This document shows positions 8,068 to 62,958 of a stretch of DNA of 64,000 bases, one piece after another (position 1 is the stretch's first letter; each line of letters starts with the position of its first letter). The stretch is from a virus: the IMG/VR virus record IMGVR_UViG_3300025011_000019, positions 1 through 64,000 of that record, one strand, 5' to 3'. A model generated the notes under the pieces. The model was not told where the DNA came from. It saw only the letters and a list, made by a program, of their open reading frames with translations, and ran no database searches. The position numbers and the translations under genes are program-made.

Positions 8068-8436
8068 CTAAATCAATTCACTATACCAACAATCCCTACA
8101 CACTAAATAAGTCTTATCATAAAAGAATGCCAACCAGTATCTCTTATTACTATTTTTACAAATAGGGCAAGTAGTATCAGCATTTTCTATGTCATAATCA
8201 TTATTATCAATATCACCACCGACAATCCTAATCTTATCCTCCAATTCAGGATAAACATAATATTTCTCAGTCGGCTTACTAACACAATATAGCACCGGAA
8301 TATTTATATTATTATTATCAATATCTACGATATCATCAACAATTGCAAATAAACCATTCCAATTTGAGTTGTCAAGAATTTGTACTTGAGTTCCTGTACT
8401 TAGTTTAGTTTTGTTGTTTAGTTTCATTTTATCCAT
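8068..8436 (-). CDS. Hypothetical protein, SH3/KOW-like N-terminus plus zinc finger
   Basis: CPIC...CRDC; AAGGAG SD. Confidence 0.65.
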   Translation of the reverse strand: MDKMKLNNKTKLSTGTQVQILDNSNWNGLFAIVDDIVDIDNNNINIPVLYCVSKPTEKYYVYPELEDKIRIVGGDIDNNDYDIENADTTCPICKNSNKRYWLAFFYDKTYLVCRDCWYSELI

Positions 8437-8525
8437 TTGATAAAAATCATCTCCTTATTAGAGAAAAGTTTATAATGATAGTTTTTATATGGGTTGTACT
8501 ATCAAACCCATTTAGTGTTTTATAT

Positions 8526-8953
8526 ACTAACCAGAAAAGCAAGCAAAATAAGACTATTTTTCTTAATTAATTATATTATCCATTTATTTATTAAAAATCA
8601 ATATCCTCTTATTTCTAAGAGAGTATCTTTTAAAATACTTTATTTTTAATATTTGTTCTTCTATAAGGATTTAAAATCCTAAAATTTATCAAATGGTGAT
8701 TAACGAAACGATTGTCGTATTTATGAATAATGTACTAATGTCATATCGTATTGGTGAATAATGATTTTGCGCTTAGTGATAGATTAGCGATTCTTCTTGC
8801 TTGTGACAGCAAACCTAAATTTTGTTTTATTATTATGTATTTAATATACATAACCTGCACTATTTTGCAATGTTTGAATATGGTAACTTGAATTTACATC
8901 TAATTTCAGATGTCCAAATAAATAGTCTATATCTTGCTTTGCTTCTGGTTAGT
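8526..8953 (-). ncRNA. Candidate structured ncRNA with degenerate heptamer-repeat core
   Basis: Imperfect ~33-bp terminal inverted repeat (8526-8559 with 8921-8953), several internal hairpins, no ORF. Confidence 0.55.
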
Positions 8954-8958
8954 TGTTT

Positions 8959-8996
8959 TAATTAGTAGAGATGTGGTTAGGCATCTCTACTAATTA
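8959..8996. terminator. Strong hairpin after the 232-aa gene (terminator or processing stem)
   Basis: TAATTAGTAGAGATG / CATCTCTACTAATTA 15-bp stem. Confidence 0.55.
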
Positions 8997-9024
8997 ATTG
9001 TCATGGTTAATTATTAGATAAAGA

Positions 9025-9723
9025 TTATAAATCAATAGAATATAAATATTTACTCACAATATCTGCTGTTGAATCATGAATGCTATAAGGGAATTCATAT
9101 TCCACAATTTCTTCCATCATGGATTTTTCAATAGAAATACTAAGTTTATCAGCTTTTTCTAGTAATGACTTATAATTATCACTAACAATACTTCTATCAA
9201 AATTAATTGTTTTAGTAATTACTACATCATACCTATATGGAGTCTCATTACCTTCCTGATTGAATTTAAATCCTTGTGCGACAGTCTTTTTCTCGTCTGT
9301 TTTTATATTGATAAGACTATTTAATACATTAGCTAAATTTCTAGATTGTTTTGCATTTGATATAGCAGAATCTAAGCTAAGATTTTTATTATCCTTAGTT
9401 TGAATTACTATATTTCTTTTTGCTAACTCTACTGAAATTTCTAATTTTGTCTTTTCTGAAATCAAGTCTTGAATAAGATTAATTACATCTACAGTTGAAG
9501 CATCTGGATATTCTTTAATAGTAGTTGTATCTAATTCCTCATTTTTTGCTTCTGGATTGGACTTTTCTTTAAGATGTTGTTCAAGTACAGAAATAGAATT
9601 ATTTTTATTAGAAAGATATGAAGTTAGAGATGAAATAGTTTTATCAATATAAACCAATGTGCGAAAGGACTCTTTTAGTGAAATTGTTGAATTAGTGTTT
9701 TGTGAATTTTGTGAATTAGACAT
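9025..9723 (-). CDS. Coiled-coil hypothetical protein
   Basis: 232 aa, helical heptad pattern; motifs SLKESFR, GFKFNQEGNETPYRYDV, TINFDR. Confidence 0.75.
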   Translation of the reverse strand: MSNSQNSQNTNSTISLKESFRTLVYIDKTISSLTSYLSNKNNSISVLEQHLKEKSNPEAKNEELDTTTIKEYPDASTVDVINLIQDLISEKTKLEISVELAKRNIVIQTKDNKNLSLDSAISNAKQSRNLANVLNSLINIKTDEKKTVAQGFKFNQEGNETPYRYDVVITKTINFDRSIVSDNYKSLLEKADKLSISIEKSMMEEIVEYEFPYSIHDSTADIVSKYLYSIDL

Positions 9724-9848
9724 ATTGTTTTCCTTCTTTCAATTTGTATTTTTCTTCTTTGTTAGAGTAATTAACTCAATTCTTTCTGTATGAAGGAGAA
9801 TTATACCCCTATAAATTCTCCTTATCTCTTTTGGCATACTTATATATT

Positions 9849-10166
9849 TCATCAGTCTCATTGCAGTATGCCATTTTTCTCTATCACTAAAGTTTAAATG
9901 AACTGTGATTAACGCCATAAAGAACAAACAATGAGTGATGAGGGGAATTTTGTGCATCTATAAACCTCATACTCTTTATCAGAGCAATGCCTGTCTTTCA
10001 AGGTCTTACTAACTTATGCACATGATTTTAGGGAGGGTTTGTAATTGCACTAACATTGACCCAATTTTATCAAACCCTAAAACAAGTTTTTATTGTTGCT
10101 GTCTTGGCTTATGCAATTTCCAAAAATCATCACCACAACAATTTATAGAGGGAAGTTTACTGATGA
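9849..10166 (-). ncRNA. Candidate multi-stem ncRNA (~320 nt)
   Basis: Nested helices closed by 9849-56/10159-66; G-U pairs favour the minus strand. Confidence 0.5.
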
Positions 10167-13589: not shown

Positions 13590-14525
13590 CTATTTTCGAC
13601 TATTTCTATTTTTTTGCATCCTCTCCCTATCCTTCTTCATTTTTATGTCTTTTGCACACTTTTCACAATACTTAGATTTATTGTTTTCTTGTACTATTAA
13701 ATCACCACAAACTTCACAATATATTTTACTAGTTTCCACATTTGTTTTCAGATTATCAACAATAATATCCCCAAAGCACTCCCATAAAGTAGTTTTAAAG
13801 TTTGACTTCTTAAATTCATACAGATATTTTACTAACACATCTGTTACATAATAAACATCACTATTTATTTCTAGTATGCTTTTTACAATTTCTTGATATA
13901 AATAAATCACATTGTTTTGTTCATCTTCCTCATATGTAGAATTTATCATAAAATGCTTTTTTAAATCTAACTCCTTATATTTTTTTATAATATCTTCGTT
14001 TAACTCCACTTTTTTATTTCTCATAAGCATTTTATAATCAAAATTTCCTAATCCTGTAGCAGTAAAACTAATTTTAGTATTTGGAATTATCTTCTCTAAT
14101 CTATTTACAACGCTATTGTTAACTAATTCAACCTTATCTTTCTCTTTATCTTTAGCATAAATAAAAAAATGAGGGGTCTTTAATTTAGTATAATCAGTAA
14201 TCATATTCTTTTTAGACTTTGGTCTTACTGGTTTATACAAAGTTTTAGCATAATCAATTGTAAAATTGTTTTCCATACATAGTAATTTAATTACATCTAA
14301 ATTTACTTTACCACTATTCCATATCTTTGTAATATTATTACTACCCATTCCAATGTTTCCACCAGTATATGCCATTTTTAAACCATTATAAATACTTTTT
14401 TTAGTAATTAATTCTGCTGGTGCTTTTCTCATATTATAATAAAGTGGAACTATATCTTTCATATTACGTTCTGCAATTGAAATTAATGTAGGACAAGCAA
14501 CAACTAAAGATTTATCTCCATCTAC
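13590..14525 (-). CDS. yonO: YonO-type single-subunit RNA polymerase, exon 2
   Basis: Begins GTA GAT GGA GAT (VDGD) immediately after the intron's terminal G; IGMGSNNITKIWN, NNFTIDYAKT; C-terminal CxxC...CxxC. Confidence 0.9.
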   Translation of the reverse strand, partial: VDGDKSLVVACPTLISIAERNMKDIVPLYYNMRKAPAELITKKSIYNGLKMAYTGGNIGMGSNNITKIWNSGKVNLDVIKLLCMENNFTIDYAKTLYKPVRPKSKKNMITDYTKLKTPHFFIYAKDKEKDKVELVNNSVVNRLEKIIPNTKISFTATGLGNFDYKMLMRNKKVELNEDIIKKYKELDLKKHFMINSTYEEDEQNNVIYLYQEIVKSILEINSDVYYVTDVLVKYLYEFKKSNFKTTLWECFGDIIVDNLKTNVETSKIYCEVCGDLIVQENNKSKYCEKCAKDIKMKKDRERMQKNRNSRK

Positions 14526-15605
14526 CGCGTAATCCATACTTTTATATGGCACAGACTATATCTTCATAATAATACATTACAGTATTATTATGCTTGGCGT
14601 TTCGAGTTATGATTTTCACATAATCTCTACTCTACTCGGTTATTCGGAAATATTTTTCAATTTCCTATCCTTTCGATAGTCGTTAGAGGTTATCGGTCTA
14701 TTCTTTTAATATTATTTTATAATTTAATAAACTTAAAATTCTTATATGGAACATCGTTTTTAATACTTCTTCTAATACCAAGTCTTACAATTTCCGCATT
14801 ACTTGAAAATCCATAATTATTATGTAGGTATTCACAACATAAACCTATATAATCAAATTCTTTTAAAAAATTCATATTCTGATCATATAATTGTATTTTT
14901 GTTGACATTCCATTTTTAATGCCTTTTCTTGATTGTTTCTCTAAAGCTAAATCTGGGTTTTCCTTATATTTTATTTTTAATGTATCATTATTATAATTAG
15001 GATTGGAAGAACCCATTTTTACTTCACTCATTTTAATTAACCAATCTTCATAATTATCTCCCATCCTTTCTTTTGGGGATACTCCAAATTGACTATTTAG
15101 TTCTCCTTTATGGGTTTCTGATATTTTTATTTTTGTTTCTTGTGAGTGTATGTATCCACTAATACCTTCACCACCATTCGTATAATTGCAATTACATTGA
15201 TTATTACTTTTATATTTTTCAATTGTATCTTTTTCTAATTTAAAAGATTCCTCTTCTTTTAAATTAGAATGGGTTATTCTAACATCGCAATTATATTTAT
15301 TTTTATAATTCAGAAAGTGTTTACTTCTGACTGACTTTGTAGACAATTTATATCTTTTTCCACATCCCTTACCAACATAAAACACATATCCCGTATCAAC
15401 ATTATACCACTCATAAATGTAAAAATTATTTATAGCCTTTCAAACCCCCTCTAAAGGTTTAAAAGAATAGACCGATTTTCCTACGGGATTGTCGGTGACA
15501 TTACTCACTACGATTTCCCCGTTAGCCATATAACTATTTTTTCCGATGTTATATGACACCCTATTTTTATAGGTTAGCCAAGTTTTGATTCGACATGTAA
15601 TGTCT
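14526..15605 (-). mobile_element. Group I intron (1080 nt) in the RNAP catalytic motif
   Basis: P1 UUCGAU/GUCGAA with U.G at the 5' splice site; P3 CUUGGC/GCCAAG; ACGGGGAA and AAUCCCGUAGGAA (P/Q-like); CUAACGACUA (R); AAGAUAUAGUCU (S); terminal G; splicing restores QFDVDGD. Confidence 0.93.
14717..15433 (-). CDS. Intron-encoded GIY-YIG homing endonuclease with NUMOD-like repeats
   Basis: In-frame upstream extension gives FYIYEWY...VFYVGKG..R; NYTNGGEG, HSQETKIKISE; enclosed by an 18-bp stem (14692-14709 with 15459-15476); start codon uncertain (ATA at 15433 proposed). Confidence 0.85.
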   Translation of the reverse strand: MNNFYIYEWYNVDTGYVFYVGKGCGKRYKLSTKSVRSKHFLNYKNKYNCDVRITHSNLKEEESFKLEKDTIEKYKSNNQCNCNYTNGGEGISGYIHSQETKIKISETHKGELNSQFGVSPKERMGDNYEDWLIKMSEVKMGSSNPNYNNDTLKIKYKENPDLALEKQSRKGIKNGMSTKIQLYDQNMNFLKEFDYIGLCCEYLHNNYGFSSNAEIVRLGIRRSIKNDVPYKNFKFIKL

Positions 15606-17288
15606 ATCGAATTGTAAAATTTTGGATATTAGATCATGACAAGATGTGTATACTCCATTAGTTATAAACCAGTCTTTCTTTTTATCATCAATTACATTGT
15701 TTCTAATTGCATGTTCTCTATACAAATGTGGGCTTCGCAAGCAATCTAACTTAGGATAAGTTTCATATAATTTACAATACACGTCTCCATCATTAAGTAA
15801 TCCTTTTGGATTTTTATCTCCAAGAATTAAAAATTCACAAAAGGCATAAATATCTGGAATAATGAATGTATATACTCCATTTATATCTAATTTTGCAGAC
15901 CTACCTTCTTTAACCATGCTTTTTTTAACTTGTTTTAATATTTCTTTACTGTATGTATCATTCAACAATTCAGGATAAATCTCTAATGCTTGCTGAATAT
16001 TGTTTTTATTTTTATTTGATTTTTTTACCCCCAATACCTTTAACATTGTCTTTCTATCTCTACCGATGTTCAGTATATTATGTTTAGTAGTTTTCGCAAT
16101 TATTTCTAATTCTTTATTATCCATATCTGTTAATGTCTGAAGCATCTGATAATTTATTTTTGCGTCACTAAAATCAATTTCTTCTTCATTACATTTCCCA
16201 GCTTGGCACTTATATTTTAAATAATTGTCTTTATAAACATCCCATCCATACTTAGTAATTACTTCTTGCTCATTATGGCTATTTTGATAATATTTATACA
16301 TTTTGAATTGACTACGTGTAAAAATTACCTCTATTCCTTCTTTTATAATATCGTGTTCTTTTCCATAAATATCGAATATATTGCCATATATTTTACCTTC
16401 CTCATTTTTATTTGCTTCAATAATGAATTTATCAAATGCAAATGGGACTAGCAATCCCTTTATCCACGGTAATCTAACCATCATGCTTTTATCACTTAAA
16501 CTTGGTAACATCATTCCACATCCATCTGTATGAGAAACTGGGATTTTCATTTTTTGTCTAATAATTTCATATGTTATATCATTTATAAAATCGACAACAC
16601 CTTCTACTTCTGTTTCCATATCTTCCACAACAATTGATTTTGTAATATCAAATTCTTTCCATACATCTGTCGCTGAATTTGCTAAGGCTAAGTAAGCTAA
16701 GTATTTATTAATATTTACTCCACCTAATACATTAATATCTTCAATTGTTAATCCGCACATTAATGTATTCCTATATTCTAATAAAATACTTTCCTTAATA
16801 AAAACTGTCTTTTTTGTTCTTATTTGTCCTGCACTGGCAGTTAAACATACATATTTTTCATTTCCGAACATAAAATCATCAAGTATTATGTCTTCAATTA
16901 CATCAAAGAAATATGTTTGAACAATAATAATATCAGCAGTTAATGTATTTTCTGGAATCTGTATTGTTCTTGTAAGAACTGAATCAAAAACAGAAATTAC
17001 ATTGTATTTATTTAACGCATCTCTACGTAAATTTCTAATACCACTATTTAATTTGAATTCATCATATAAAGAATTTTTATATTTTTTTAATCTCATATTG
17101 GTATTCTGTATAAACTTCTCCAGAATACCAATATATTTTGAATCAGATTTTAATTTACTTATCTTTTTTATTAATTTGTTTCTAAGATAATAGTTTTTAT
17201 TCAAACGTTTATGTATAATCATTTCTTTATCATTATAAAAACTACTGGTATCAACACTATAGATATGAATTTGTTTATTTAGACTAAT
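15606..17288 (-). CDS. yonO: YonO-type single-subunit RNA polymerase, exon 1 (ATT start inferred)
   Basis: TASAGQIRTKK, HTDGCGM, RLPWIKGLL, NYQMLQTL, CLRSPHLYREH, ISKILQFD; AAGGAGGAG SD 6 nt before ATT. Confidence 0.9.
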
Positions 17289-62856: not shown

Positions 62857-62958
62857 ATTAACTGGTCTGATCCAGTATAAAACGCCTTAAGCTCAGAGCG
62901 TTAGCAGGGTTCATAACAATCCTGCTAGGTGGTATCAAAAAATAGGAGGTGCAATAAT

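What the first reader, a model, noticed from the sequence alone, without database searches (positions are those of the whole stretch)
8526..9723. Coiled-coil gene plus downstream ~430-nt closed RNA with a degenerate 7-nt repeat core: candidate undescribed ribonucleoprotein module
Seen directly. After the 232-aa helical protein and a 15-bp hairpin lies an ORF-free segment closed by a ~33-bp imperfect inverted repeat (8526-8559 with 8921-8953). It contains small hairpins (8606-21, 8666-80, 8797-8812, 8833-53, 8896-8913). Its centre (8694-8791) is a poorly pairing run of about 12 quasi-periodic units reading on the minus strand AUCGCUA, AUCACUA, AUCAUUA, UUCACCA, UACGAUA, GACAUUA, UACAUUA, UUCAUAA, UACGACA, AUCGUU, UCGUUA, AUCACCA (about WWCRYYA). 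Inference: an RNA scaffold with repeated sites for an oligomeric protein (the adjacent coiled coil), or an antitoxin/decoy RNA. I know of no named system that fits.
Basis: partly seen in the sequence, partly recalled or inferred. Interest (0 to 1): 0.75.

Follow-up and report, generated by a model that had tools for sequence, protein, structure and literature searches.

The report
Phage protein gene with partner RNA
Right behind a small phage gene of unknown function lies a real, conserved, about 430-base folded RNA with a row of evenly spaced short units; the gene and this RNA travel together in nearly every relative examined and match no catalogued family, so they are probably the two halves of an undescribed protein-RNA particle.

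Summary
Window 8526-8953 (minus strand) is an ORF-free, strongly folded segment (MFE z = -7.15). It is closed by a 32-pair helix (8920-8953 with 8526-8559) and preceded by a perfect 16-bp hairpin.

- Its centre (8694-8790) carries 14 C sites, 11 of 13 spacings being 7-8 nt, mostly with A at +4.
- The upstream 232-aa protein belongs to a large uncultured-phage family (923 clusters at 50% identity). In 72 of 77 non-identical loci a comparable closed RNA follows the stop codon.
- In a sister clade 30 of 50 pairs show compensatory changes (0/500 shuffles reach this).
- A 5' H-type pseudoknot and the periodic C-N3-A core are conserved across clades whose sequences no longer align.
- No Rfam, Pfam, PHROG or NCBIfam family fits. 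The protein's predicted fold matches only PDB 3KDQ, of unknown function. It is predicted to self-associate, but it is acidic.
- Neighbours are often tRNA arrays, RNA ligases, RtcB, Thg1 and PIN-PhoH.

Best reading: a co-transcribed protein-RNA module whose unpaired array is a repeated binding platform. The binding partner and the function are inferred, not shown. This scan had already noted the same kind of pair on other DNA in at least 15 genomes. Expression could not be tested.

The parts
9025..9723 (-). Gene of the 232-aa partner protein. The predicted fold is two helix / beta-hairpin / helix repeats, like PDB 3KDQ. The protein is acidic (pI 5.15).
   Evidence: ORF. No Pfam, PHROG or NCBIfam hit. 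AF2 pLDDT 88.5. 3kdq_A Z 10.6, rmsd 3.2 A, 150 of 152 residues aligned. 923 clusters at 50% identity in public data. Single copy in the 146-kb genome.
8958..8997 (-). Perfect 16-bp hairpin directly after the gene, with no U tract. Its loop CCUAACCA (8974-8981) is conserved and repeats the first bases of the 5' arm.
   Evidence: I2. Stem covaries and loop TAACCA is invariant in alignment A1. Loop and 3' tail covary. No terminator called.
8920..8953 (-). 5' arm of the closing helix.
   Evidence: MFE. 32 pairs, 96.4% of cells paired in 14 relatives. Nine pairs vary on one side only, mostly A-U to G-U, which is tolerated only on this strand.
8889..8913 (-). Conserved hairpin or H-type pseudoknot. 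S1 is 8909-8913 with 8896-8900. S2 is 8903-8908 with 8889-8894, 5 of 6 pairs here.
   Evidence: helix 3, 92.9% paired. A pseudoknot at the equivalent place in 68 of 78 loci against 26 of 78 shuffles. S1 and S2 covary across at least 6 clades.
8796..8870 (-). Three hairpins: 8855-8870, 8832-8854 and 8796-8813 (the GUUUGCUGUCACAAGCA hairpin).
   Evidence: MFE. Kept in relatives, with UUGCU/AGCAA replaced by UUUAC/GUAAA.
8694..8790 (-). G-poor, largely unpaired core with 14 C sites at 7-8-nt spacing (unit about YC-R-N-N-A-W). It is bracketed by UCGCUAAUC and UCGUUAAUCA.
   Evidence: Read. The helices predicted inside it are poorly kept (helices 8, 9, 14, 15). The core profile finds only the expected place and strand in 27 of 27 included hits. 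Spacing test 0/200000.
8589..8680 (-). 3' domain: hairpin 8666-8680, and helix 8589-8651 enclosing hairpins 8622-8639 and 8606-8621.
   Evidence: MFE. Helices 16 and 19 are kept, with GGAU/AUCC replaced by GAAU/AUUC and three compensatory pairs.
8526..8559 (-). 3' arm of the closing helix. Its last bases UGGUUAG (8527-8533) are complementary to both the 5' arm and the upstream hairpin loop.
   Evidence: (I16, I18, I25). Conservation in relatives stops within about 6 nt of this arm.

Best explanation
The 232-aa gene and the roughly 430-nt RNA behind it are one conserved two-part module of a large lineage of uncultured phages, many of them from gut-type bacterial bins.

Shown here:
- The RNA is a real, strand-specific, conserved structure.
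- Its parts are a long closing helix that brings the two ends together, a 5' H-type pseudoknot, several hairpins, and an unpaired G-poor centre with about 13-14 C-N3-A units spaced 7-8 nt.
- It follows the stop codon of this protein family in almost every relative, whatever lies downstream.

Inferred:
- Gene and RNA are co-transcribed. The closing helix is where the RNA is cut out or has its ends held or joined.
- The periodic centre is a repeated docking platform for an oligomer, one subunit per unit, in the manner of TRAP or HutP on their RNAs. The most likely oligomer is the encoded 3KDQ-fold protein, which is predicted to self-associate.
- The particle acts in RNA or tRNA maintenance during infection, judging from its neighbours.

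My odds:
- real conserved RNA partnered genetically with this protein family: about 0.9;
- the array is a protein-binding platform: about 0.6;
- the binder is the adjacent protein: about 0.45;
- a role in RNA repair or tRNA biology: about 0.35.
For: Structure:
- Fold z = -7.15.
- The closing helix is 96.4% paired in 14 relatives, and its one-sided changes give G-U.
- Sister clade A5: 50 pairs, 95.7% paired, 30 pairs with compensatory change against 16.0 +/- 2.2 in shuffles (0/500) and at most 11 in slid controls.
- Long-range pairs: median 41 against 19 for upstream control segments and 17 for shuffles. 78 of the 80 loci folded have long-range pairs.

Linkage:
- 77 viral and 14 genome-bin loci encode the protein.
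- The RNA is alignable in all close loci.
- The core profile hits only the + strand, 186-320 nt after the stop, in 27 of 27 included hits.
- The pseudoknot class is shared by at least 6 clades.
- Downstream genes vary.

Periodicity.

Protein:
- Self-association ipSAE 0.68 against a best control of 0.00. That mark was reached by 20 of 30 proteins solved as pairs and 1 of 23 solved as single chains. The runs agree in at least 74% of contacts and partner pLDDT is at least 79.
- The nearly invariant residues are polar or aromatic: K17, H50, K102, N124, N155, G158, Q160, Y163, Y165.

Context:
- 23 of 60 loci have same-strand tRNA genes within 3 kb, some abutting the module.
- RNA ligases, RtcB, Thg1, PIN-PhoH and YonO occur among the neighbours.

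Strand: the sense fold is more stable in 16 of 23 clades, p = 0.014.
Against:
- The protein is acidic in all 17 members tested, pI 4.7-5.6. That is unusual for an RNA binder.
- Protein and RNA divergence are discordant. L028 has 43% protein identity but 81% RNA identity. L018 has 76% protein identity but a barely alignable RNA. A tightly co-evolving pair is therefore not evident.
- One relative (L026) keeps the closing helix but lacks the whole periodic core.
- The predicted protein interface is two-fold symmetric, which does not by itself give a ring.
- For the window itself, sense and antisense folds are equally stable.
- Within the window's own clade covariation is modest.
- Part of the core can pair with the 3' domain in the MFE: helices 11-13, 59-79% kept.
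Confidence: 0.55

Rival explanations
1. An RNA-only particle or RNA machine in the manner of GOLLD and ROOL. The RNA acts by itself, perhaps as a multimer or a ribozyme, and the upstream gene is merely a constant neighbour or transcription driver.
For: - It is large, ornate and pseudoknotted, it is phage-borne, and it is often next to tRNA genes. That is the context described for GOLLD and ROOL (PMC5737381).
- The protein is acidic.
- Protein and RNA divergence are uncoupled.
Against: - GOLLD and ROOL have no constant protein neighbour. Here the same protein family precedes the RNA in almost all of the ~80 non-identical loci, spanning 24-91% protein identity.
- The most conserved part is an unpaired periodic array, not a compact core.
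Confidence: 0.17
2. The periodic array is a platform or sponge for another factor, not the adjacent protein. Candidates are the phage PIN-PhoH RNA helicase/nuclease, a host RNA chaperone, or Rho, for which the array would be a C-rich, G-poor decoy.
For: - The centre is G-poor with regularly spaced C.
- PIN-PhoH genes lie within 3 kb in 21 loci, on either side of the module.
- The adjacent protein is acidic.
Against: - No neighbour other than the 232-aa family is constant.
- The module occurs in hosts as different as Clostridia and Bacteroidales bins, so a single host factor would have to be very conserved.
Confidence: 0.13
3. A purely cis-acting mRNA element. It would be a processing site (a double-strand-specific RNase cutting the closing helix), a 3' stabiliser of the upstream message, and an insulator before the next gene, with no function as a free RNA.
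For: - It starts within 1-25 nt of the stop codon in distant loci, and the next ribosome-binding site follows the 3' arm closely.
- No promoter or terminator of its own is predicted.
- In distant clades the terminator-like hairpin shares bases with the 5' arm.
Against: - A processing stem needs about 20-40 bp, not 430 nt.
- The element keeps a conserved pseudoknot and a conserved unpaired periodic core across clades that no longer align.
Confidence: 0.1
4. A DNA-level element: a replication origin with iterons, a packaging site, or a miniature inverted-repeat transposable element.
For: - Terminal inverted repeat of about 33 bp.
- Short direct repeats in the centre: D2, 18 nt, 31 nt apart.
- AT-rich sequence.
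Against: - Single copy in the 146-kb genome.
- The arms change by G-U-compatible and compensatory substitutions, not by sequence conservation.
- The position is fixed after one gene family.
- The DnaA-box-like words are not conserved in relatives.
Confidence: 0.03

Closest known systems
GOLLD and ROOL RNAs (large ornate RNAs of phages and prophages)
   Same: Several hundred nucleotides long, with multiple stems and a pseudoknot, phage-borne, often beside tRNA genes, function unknown (PMC5737381 read).
   Different: No match to either covariance model, even at E <= 10 (window) or E <= 1 (10 loci). This RNA has a constant protein-gene partner and a conserved unpaired periodic array, which those RNAs are not described as having.
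TRAP with the trp leader, and HutP with hut mRNA (Bacillus subtilis)
   Same: A row of short sequence units at fixed spacing in unpaired RNA. From established knowledge, TRAP reads 11 triplets 2-3 nt apart and HutP reads UAG units with a 7-nt period, each unit by one subunit of a homo-oligomer. Here there are about 13-14 C-N3-A units at 7-8 nt and a self-associating protein.
   Different: Those arrays sit in 5' leaders and control the downstream operon. This one lies 3' of the protein's own gene, inside a closed 430-nt RNA, and the downstream genes vary. The protein folds are unrelated. Binding is not shown.
PDB 3KDQ (Corynebacterium diphtheriae protein of unknown function), which earlier notes of this scan call DIP1984 / Pfam DUF6847
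   Same: Same fold over the whole 3KDQ chain: Z 10.6, rmsd 3.2 A, 150 of 152 residues. ESM Atlas neighbours include a cluster in which 14% of members carry DUF6847.
   Different: No sequence-level membership (details in the membership table). The protein is about 60-80 residues longer than 3KDQ.
Ro60 (Rsr) with Y RNAs in rsr-yrlBA-rtcBA type operons
   Same: A small non-coding RNA whose 5' and 3' ends pair in a long stem, encoded beside its protein partner and near RNA-repair genes. RtcB, RNA ligases and Thg1 occur among the neighbours here.
   Different: No TROVE or vWA domain was found in the protein, and no Y RNA model matched. The RNA is 3-4 times longer and has the periodic array.
Type III toxin-antitoxin RNAs (ToxI and relatives)
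   Same: A repetitive RNA encoded next to a protein gene in phage-related DNA.
   Different: ToxI-type antitoxins are exact tandem repeats of about 34-40 nt placed upstream of an endoribonuclease toxin. Here there is no tandem repeat, the units are 7-8 nt and degenerate, the order is reversed, and PADLOC-type or toxin features were not seen in the protein.

Membership tests
Any Rfam 15 family (including GOLLD, ROOL, HEARO, RAGATH-27, Y RNA, 6S, tmRNA) | Match to the family's covariance model at or near its gathering score | tested here: not met
   Window 8400-9100 at E <= 10 gave only chance miRNA/snoRNA hits. The whole window at gathering gave only Pistol, elsewhere. Twenty relatives at gathering and ten at E <= 1 gave nothing in the element.
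Pfam DUF6847 (PF20935) / DIP1984-like | Sequence match to the family HMM | tested here: not met
   No hit at E <= 1 in the whole phage genome. None of 113 family members hits DUF6847 or DUF7873 at E <= 0.1. No NCBIfam hit.
Pfam DUF6847 (PF20935) / DIP1984-like | Fold of the solved representative 3KDQ | tested here: met
   VIA-align Z 10.6, rmsd 3.2 A, 150 of 152 residues. The next rows have Z about 8 and cover only a helical hairpin. Foldseek probability 0.93, TM by target 0.63.
TRAP / HutP-type oligomer-on-repeats regulators | Regularly spaced short sequence units in unpaired RNA | tested here: met
   helices inside the core are poorly kept.
TRAP / HutP-type oligomer-on-repeats regulators | Ring-shaped homo-oligomer with as many subunits as units | tested here: inconclusive
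   Self-association is supported: ipSAE 0.68 against a best control of 0.00. That mark was reached by 20 of 30 proteins solved as pairs and 1 of 23 solved as single chains. The interface is two-fold symmetric, and only 4 copies could be folded.
TRAP / HutP-type oligomer-on-repeats regulators | Array in the 5' leader of the operon it controls | tested here: not met
   The array lies 3' of the protein gene, and the downstream genes differ between loci.
Type III toxin-antitoxin | Tandem direct repeats of about 34-40 nt upstream of an endoribonuclease toxin gene | tested here: not met
   TRF finds no array at score >= 30. Only two 18-nt copies lie 31 nt apart. The RNA is downstream of the protein.
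Miniature inverted-repeat transposable element / insertion sequence | Multiple copies, arms conserved in sequence, target-site duplication | tested here: not met
   One copy in the 146 kb genome. The arm word is found only at the element itself. The arms covary. Flanking TAAAACA words are not adjacent to both arms.
Ro60 / Y RNA module | TROVE-domain protein beside an RNA with a conserved bulged closing stem | tested here: not met
   No Pfam domain in the protein. No Y RNA model match. Only the closing stem and the RNA-repair neighbourhood resemble it.

The most novel reading that the evidence does not exclude
The pair is a new class of phage ribonucleoprotein. The RNA would be excised, with its ends locked or even ligated into a circle at the closing helix and the hairpin-loop/3'-tail pairing. 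Its roughly 13-14 evenly spaced C-N3-A units would each seat one subunit of the 3KDQ-fold protein. The particle would work with the neighbouring tRNA, RNA-ligase, RtcB, Thg1 and PIN-PhoH genes in RNA damage control or in countering host RNA-targeting defence. This would give a first function to a family of more than 900 protein clusters and to the 3KDQ fold.
Probability: 0.3. Interest if true: 0.9.

Novelty: categorically new. Interest (0 to 1): 0.8.

Why it matters
- The protein family is large: 923 clusters at 50% identity, with E <= 0.001. It has no described function.
- Its only structural relative is a structural-genomics orphan.
- I found no paper linking this family to an RNA. The terms DIP1984, DUF6847, 3KDQ, DUF7873 and septicolysin bring up only annotation labels.
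- A dedicated 430-nt RNA with a pseudoknot, a long end-joining helix and a periodic single-stranded array would be a new kind of protein-RNA particle in phages. It would sit in the same genomic niche (tRNA clusters, RNA repair genes) as the unexplained giant RNAs GOLLD and ROOL.
- The finding is directly testable, because both parts are small and can be expressed.

Tried and rejected
Searches and tests that gave nothing:
- Cultured phages: DNA of the locus and three family proteins found nothing in 50,697 phage records.
- A degenerate core pattern scanned over viral contigs gave 22 places. Apart from one weak hit (L096, E 0.0012), only those already known by the protein matched the RNA profile.
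- Sequence-profile search of the PDB with 17 or 113 members: only chance helical hits (PspA/Vipp1, E about 0.05), and 3KDQ is not found by sequence.
- Foldseek against the PDB: nothing at E <= 0.001. The TolC-like rows have TM about 0.2.

Methods that failed:
- RNAduplex between the ends of long segments was uninformative, because whole segments were paired.
- The Fourier test of the period was not significant, because the spacing alternates between 7 and 8.

Ideas dropped:
- DnaA-box reading of TTATTCACC-like words: these words are not conserved in relatives.
- A small peptide in the core: the ATG-led frames differ between relatives.
- A covariance model of the whole RNA was not built, because the alignment exceeds the 400-column limit.
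Full report
**Setting**

The window is the first 64 kb of a 146-kb IMG/VR virus record, estimated 88% complete. The genome is AT-rich, about 27% G+C. Genes around the finding run on the minus strand. They include:
- a PIN-PhoH protein and an HU-like protein;
- a GIY-YIG endonuclease;
- an SbcD/Mre11-like exonuclease and a ClpP-like protease;
- a YonO-type single-subunit RNA polymerase, Pfam RdRP, at 15567-17222.

**The observation**

- The segment 8437-9024 has no credible ORF.
- Directly after the stop codon of the 232-aa gene (9025-9723) comes a perfect 16-bp hairpin, 8958-8973 with 8982-8997, without a U tract.
- The RNA 8520-8960(-) folds to -93.7 kcal/mol against -61.0 +/- 4.6 for shuffles, z = -7.15.
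- The centre, 8694-8790, has C at 14 sites. The spacings are 7,4,7,8,7,8,8,8,7,8,7,5,7, and A stands four bases after 13 of the 14 sites (read).

**Is it more than chance? Comparative evidence**

The 232-aa protein has relatives at 72-91% identity in nine viral contigs. All of them keep the downstream element at 71-84% nucleotide identity, and conservation ends within a few bases of the 3' arm. An alignment-based search then gave 77 viral loci and 14 loci in metagenome-assembled bins of Clostridia, Oscillospiraceae, Bacteroidales and others.

*Closing helix in relatives*
- In MFE folds, 78 of the 80 non-identical loci folded have long-range pairs behind the gene.
- In a separate run with controls, 72 of 77 regions have at least 25 such pairs. 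The median is 41, against 19 in control segments taken upstream and 17 in shuffles.

*Covariation*
- Within the window's clade the closing helix is 96.4% paired. Its changes are A-U to G-U or C-G to U-G, which are compatible only with the gene-sense strand.
- A sister clade (alignment A5, 12 sequences) is diverged enough for a real test. Of its 50 pairs, 95.7% of cells are paired.
- In that clade 30 pairs carry compensatory changes, against 16.0 +/- 2.2 in shuffles (0 of 500 reach this) and at most 11 when partners are slid.

*Strand*
- The sense strand folds better than the antisense in 16 of 23 clades, p = 0.014.
- For the window itself the two strands are equal.

**Conserved features across clades that no longer align**

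*(a) Pseudoknot*
- An H-type pseudoknot lies about 55-105 nt after the stop. It is found in 68 of 78 loci against 26 of 78 shuffles.
- One class, G(C/G)UUCA-G-NNGCAG-A-UGAA(C/G)U-N5-6-CUGCNN, recurs in at least six clades with both stems covarying.
- In the window, S1 is 8909-8913 with 8896-8900. S2 is 8903-8908 with 8889-8894, with one A.A mismatch.

*(b) Periodic core*
- A profile of the core was iterated with nhmmer over whole loci on both strands. It included 27 hits, all on the gene strand and all 186-320 nt after the stop codon, and none elsewhere.
- In 17 non-redundant members the conserved columns are C at 6, 13, 18, 25, 33, 40, 48, 56, 64, 72, 80 and 87, with A four bases later at 11 of 15.
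- Ten of 14 gaps between conserved C columns are 7-8 nt. This was reached by 0 of 200000 random placements, or 17 of 200000 allowing any period.
- C autocorrelation over all loci peaks at lags 7-8 and 15-16.
- The helices that the MFE draws inside the core are poorly kept.

*(c) Loop and tail, in the window's clade*
- The hairpin loop CCUAACCA repeats the start of the 5' arm.
- The 3' tail UGGUUAG is complementary to both.
- Loop and tail covary (CU with AG, UC with GA, UU with AA), even where the 5' arm does not. This suggests an extra lock or an alternative pairing of the 3' end.

**What it is not**

- No Rfam family matches, in the window or in relatives.
- It is single-copy and has no tandem repeat.
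- Its arms evolve by compensation rather than by sequence conservation.

Together these points exclude a transposable element, an iteron origin and a ToxI-like antitoxin.

**The protein**

- No Pfam, PHROG or NCBIfam family matches.
- AlphaFold gives a confident model, pLDDT 88.5, of two helix / beta-hairpin / helix repeats.
- The only clear structural relative is PDB 3KDQ, a Corynebacterium diphtheriae protein of unknown function: Z 10.6, rmsd 3.2 A, 150 of 152 residues.
- ESM Atlas and BFVD neighbours are uncharacterised phage proteins, with DUF6847 on a minority. Sequence-level membership in DUF6847 was tested and not met.
- The family is large, 923 clusters at 50% identity.
- Four copies are predicted to associate: ipSAE 0.68, best control 0.00. 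That mark was reached by 20 of 30 proteins solved as pairs and 1 of 23 solved as single chains. The runs agree in at least 74% of contacts and partner pLDDT is at least 79. This is model confidence, not a measurement.
- Nearly invariant residues are polar or aromatic: K17, H50, K102, N124, N155, G158, Q160, Y163, Y165. Several lie on the long beta-hairpin, which looks like a ligand surface. That is inference.
- Against an RNA-binding role, all 17 members tested are acidic.

**Context**

- The only constant neighbour of the RNA is this protein.
- tRNA genes on the same strand lie within 3 kb in 23 of 60 loci, sometimes abutting the module.
- Among 116 neighbouring ORFs of distant loci are three Rnl2-type RNA ligases, one Rnl1-type ligase, one RtcB, two Thg1, two PIN-PhoH and two YonO.
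- PIN-PhoH lies within 3 kb in 21 loci.
- This is the genomic niche described for GOLLD and ROOL (PMC5737381).

**Mechanism**

Shown: a conserved, strand-specific, closed RNA tied genetically to one protein family.

Inferred, with odds:
- The two are co-transcribed.
- The closing helix, together with the upstream hairpin, marks where the RNA is excised or has its ends held.
- The unpaired periodic array docks a homo-oligomer, one subunit per 7-8-nt unit, as TRAP and HutP do on their RNAs (about 0.6).
- The oligomer is the adjacent protein (about 0.45).
- The particle serves RNA or tRNA maintenance (about 0.35).

Unexplained:
- the acidic protein;
- the natural variant L026, which lacks the core;
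- protein and RNA divergence that do not track each other.

**Earlier notes of this scan**

Notes found report the same kind of pair on other DNA in at least 15 genomes: a DIP1984/DUF6847-like gene followed by an RNA with 7-nt units.
- Two of them claim head-to-tail joined RNA in public data. One claims a link to RtcB operons.
- I treated these as leads.
- I reproduced here the 3KDQ fold match, the strict gene-RNA linkage, the periodic array, the absence of an Rfam family and the RNA-repair neighbourhood.
- I could not test circularity.

This member is larger than those described there: about 430 nt, with a helix of 32-37 pairs.

**Verdict**

The module is real, widespread, uncatalogued, and unlike any described system that I could find.

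Noticed in passing
window 62861-62934 (+): A Pistol self-cleaving ribozyme match well above the gathering score: 55.3 bits against 34.5, E 2.4e-07.
   Followed up: no
window 13590-17222 (-): The YonO-type RNA polymerase appears split. 15567-17222 hits Pfam RdRP. 13590-14552 matches the C-terminal part of phrog_8308 (positions 551-846 of 847). Between them lies a NUMOD3 endonuclease ORF, 14717-15385.
   Followed up: partly
window 9004-9009, 8974-8981, 8946-8952 and 8527-8533 (-): The word UAACCA occurs three times in a row of conserved places: just after the stop codon, in the hairpin loop, and at the start of the 5' arm. The 3' tail UGGUUAG is complementary to it. Loop and tail covary between subclades.
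   Followed up: partly
L026:3676-4010: A natural short form of the RNA, about 225 nt. It keeps the upstream hairpin, the closing helix and the 3' hairpins but lacks the whole periodic core. Its fold has z = -6.05.
   Followed up: partly
L028, L029, L031-L033 versus L018, L021-L027: Protein and RNA divergence are discordant. Loci with only 41-43% protein identity carry an RNA 71-81% identical to the window's. A locus with 76% protein identity has a barely alignable RNA. This points to recombination between the gene and the RNA.
   Followed up: partly
L071:4145-4227 and L077:4177-4260: ARAGORN calls a tRNA with a four-base anticodon (acag) directly after a tRNA-Tyr and just behind the RNA element. 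It could be a frameshift-suppressor-type tRNA.
   Followed up: no
L025:4545-4775 and L114:372-440: A HEARO RNA (135.9 bits) lies about 500 nt behind the element in L025. A near-threshold HDV-like ribozyme match (38.1 bits against a cut-off of 44) lies in L114.
   Followed up: no
window 8068-8436 (-): The 122-aa ORF after the RNA ends in a CxxC...CxxC zinc-ribbon-like motif, with a weak DUF7573 hit. Its C-terminal part recurs behind the RNA in 16 related loci, usually just before the SbcD-like exonuclease gene.
   Followed up: no
window 9739-10166 (-): The stretch upstream of the 232-aa gene is also largely ORF-free. I did not examine it.
   Followed up: no
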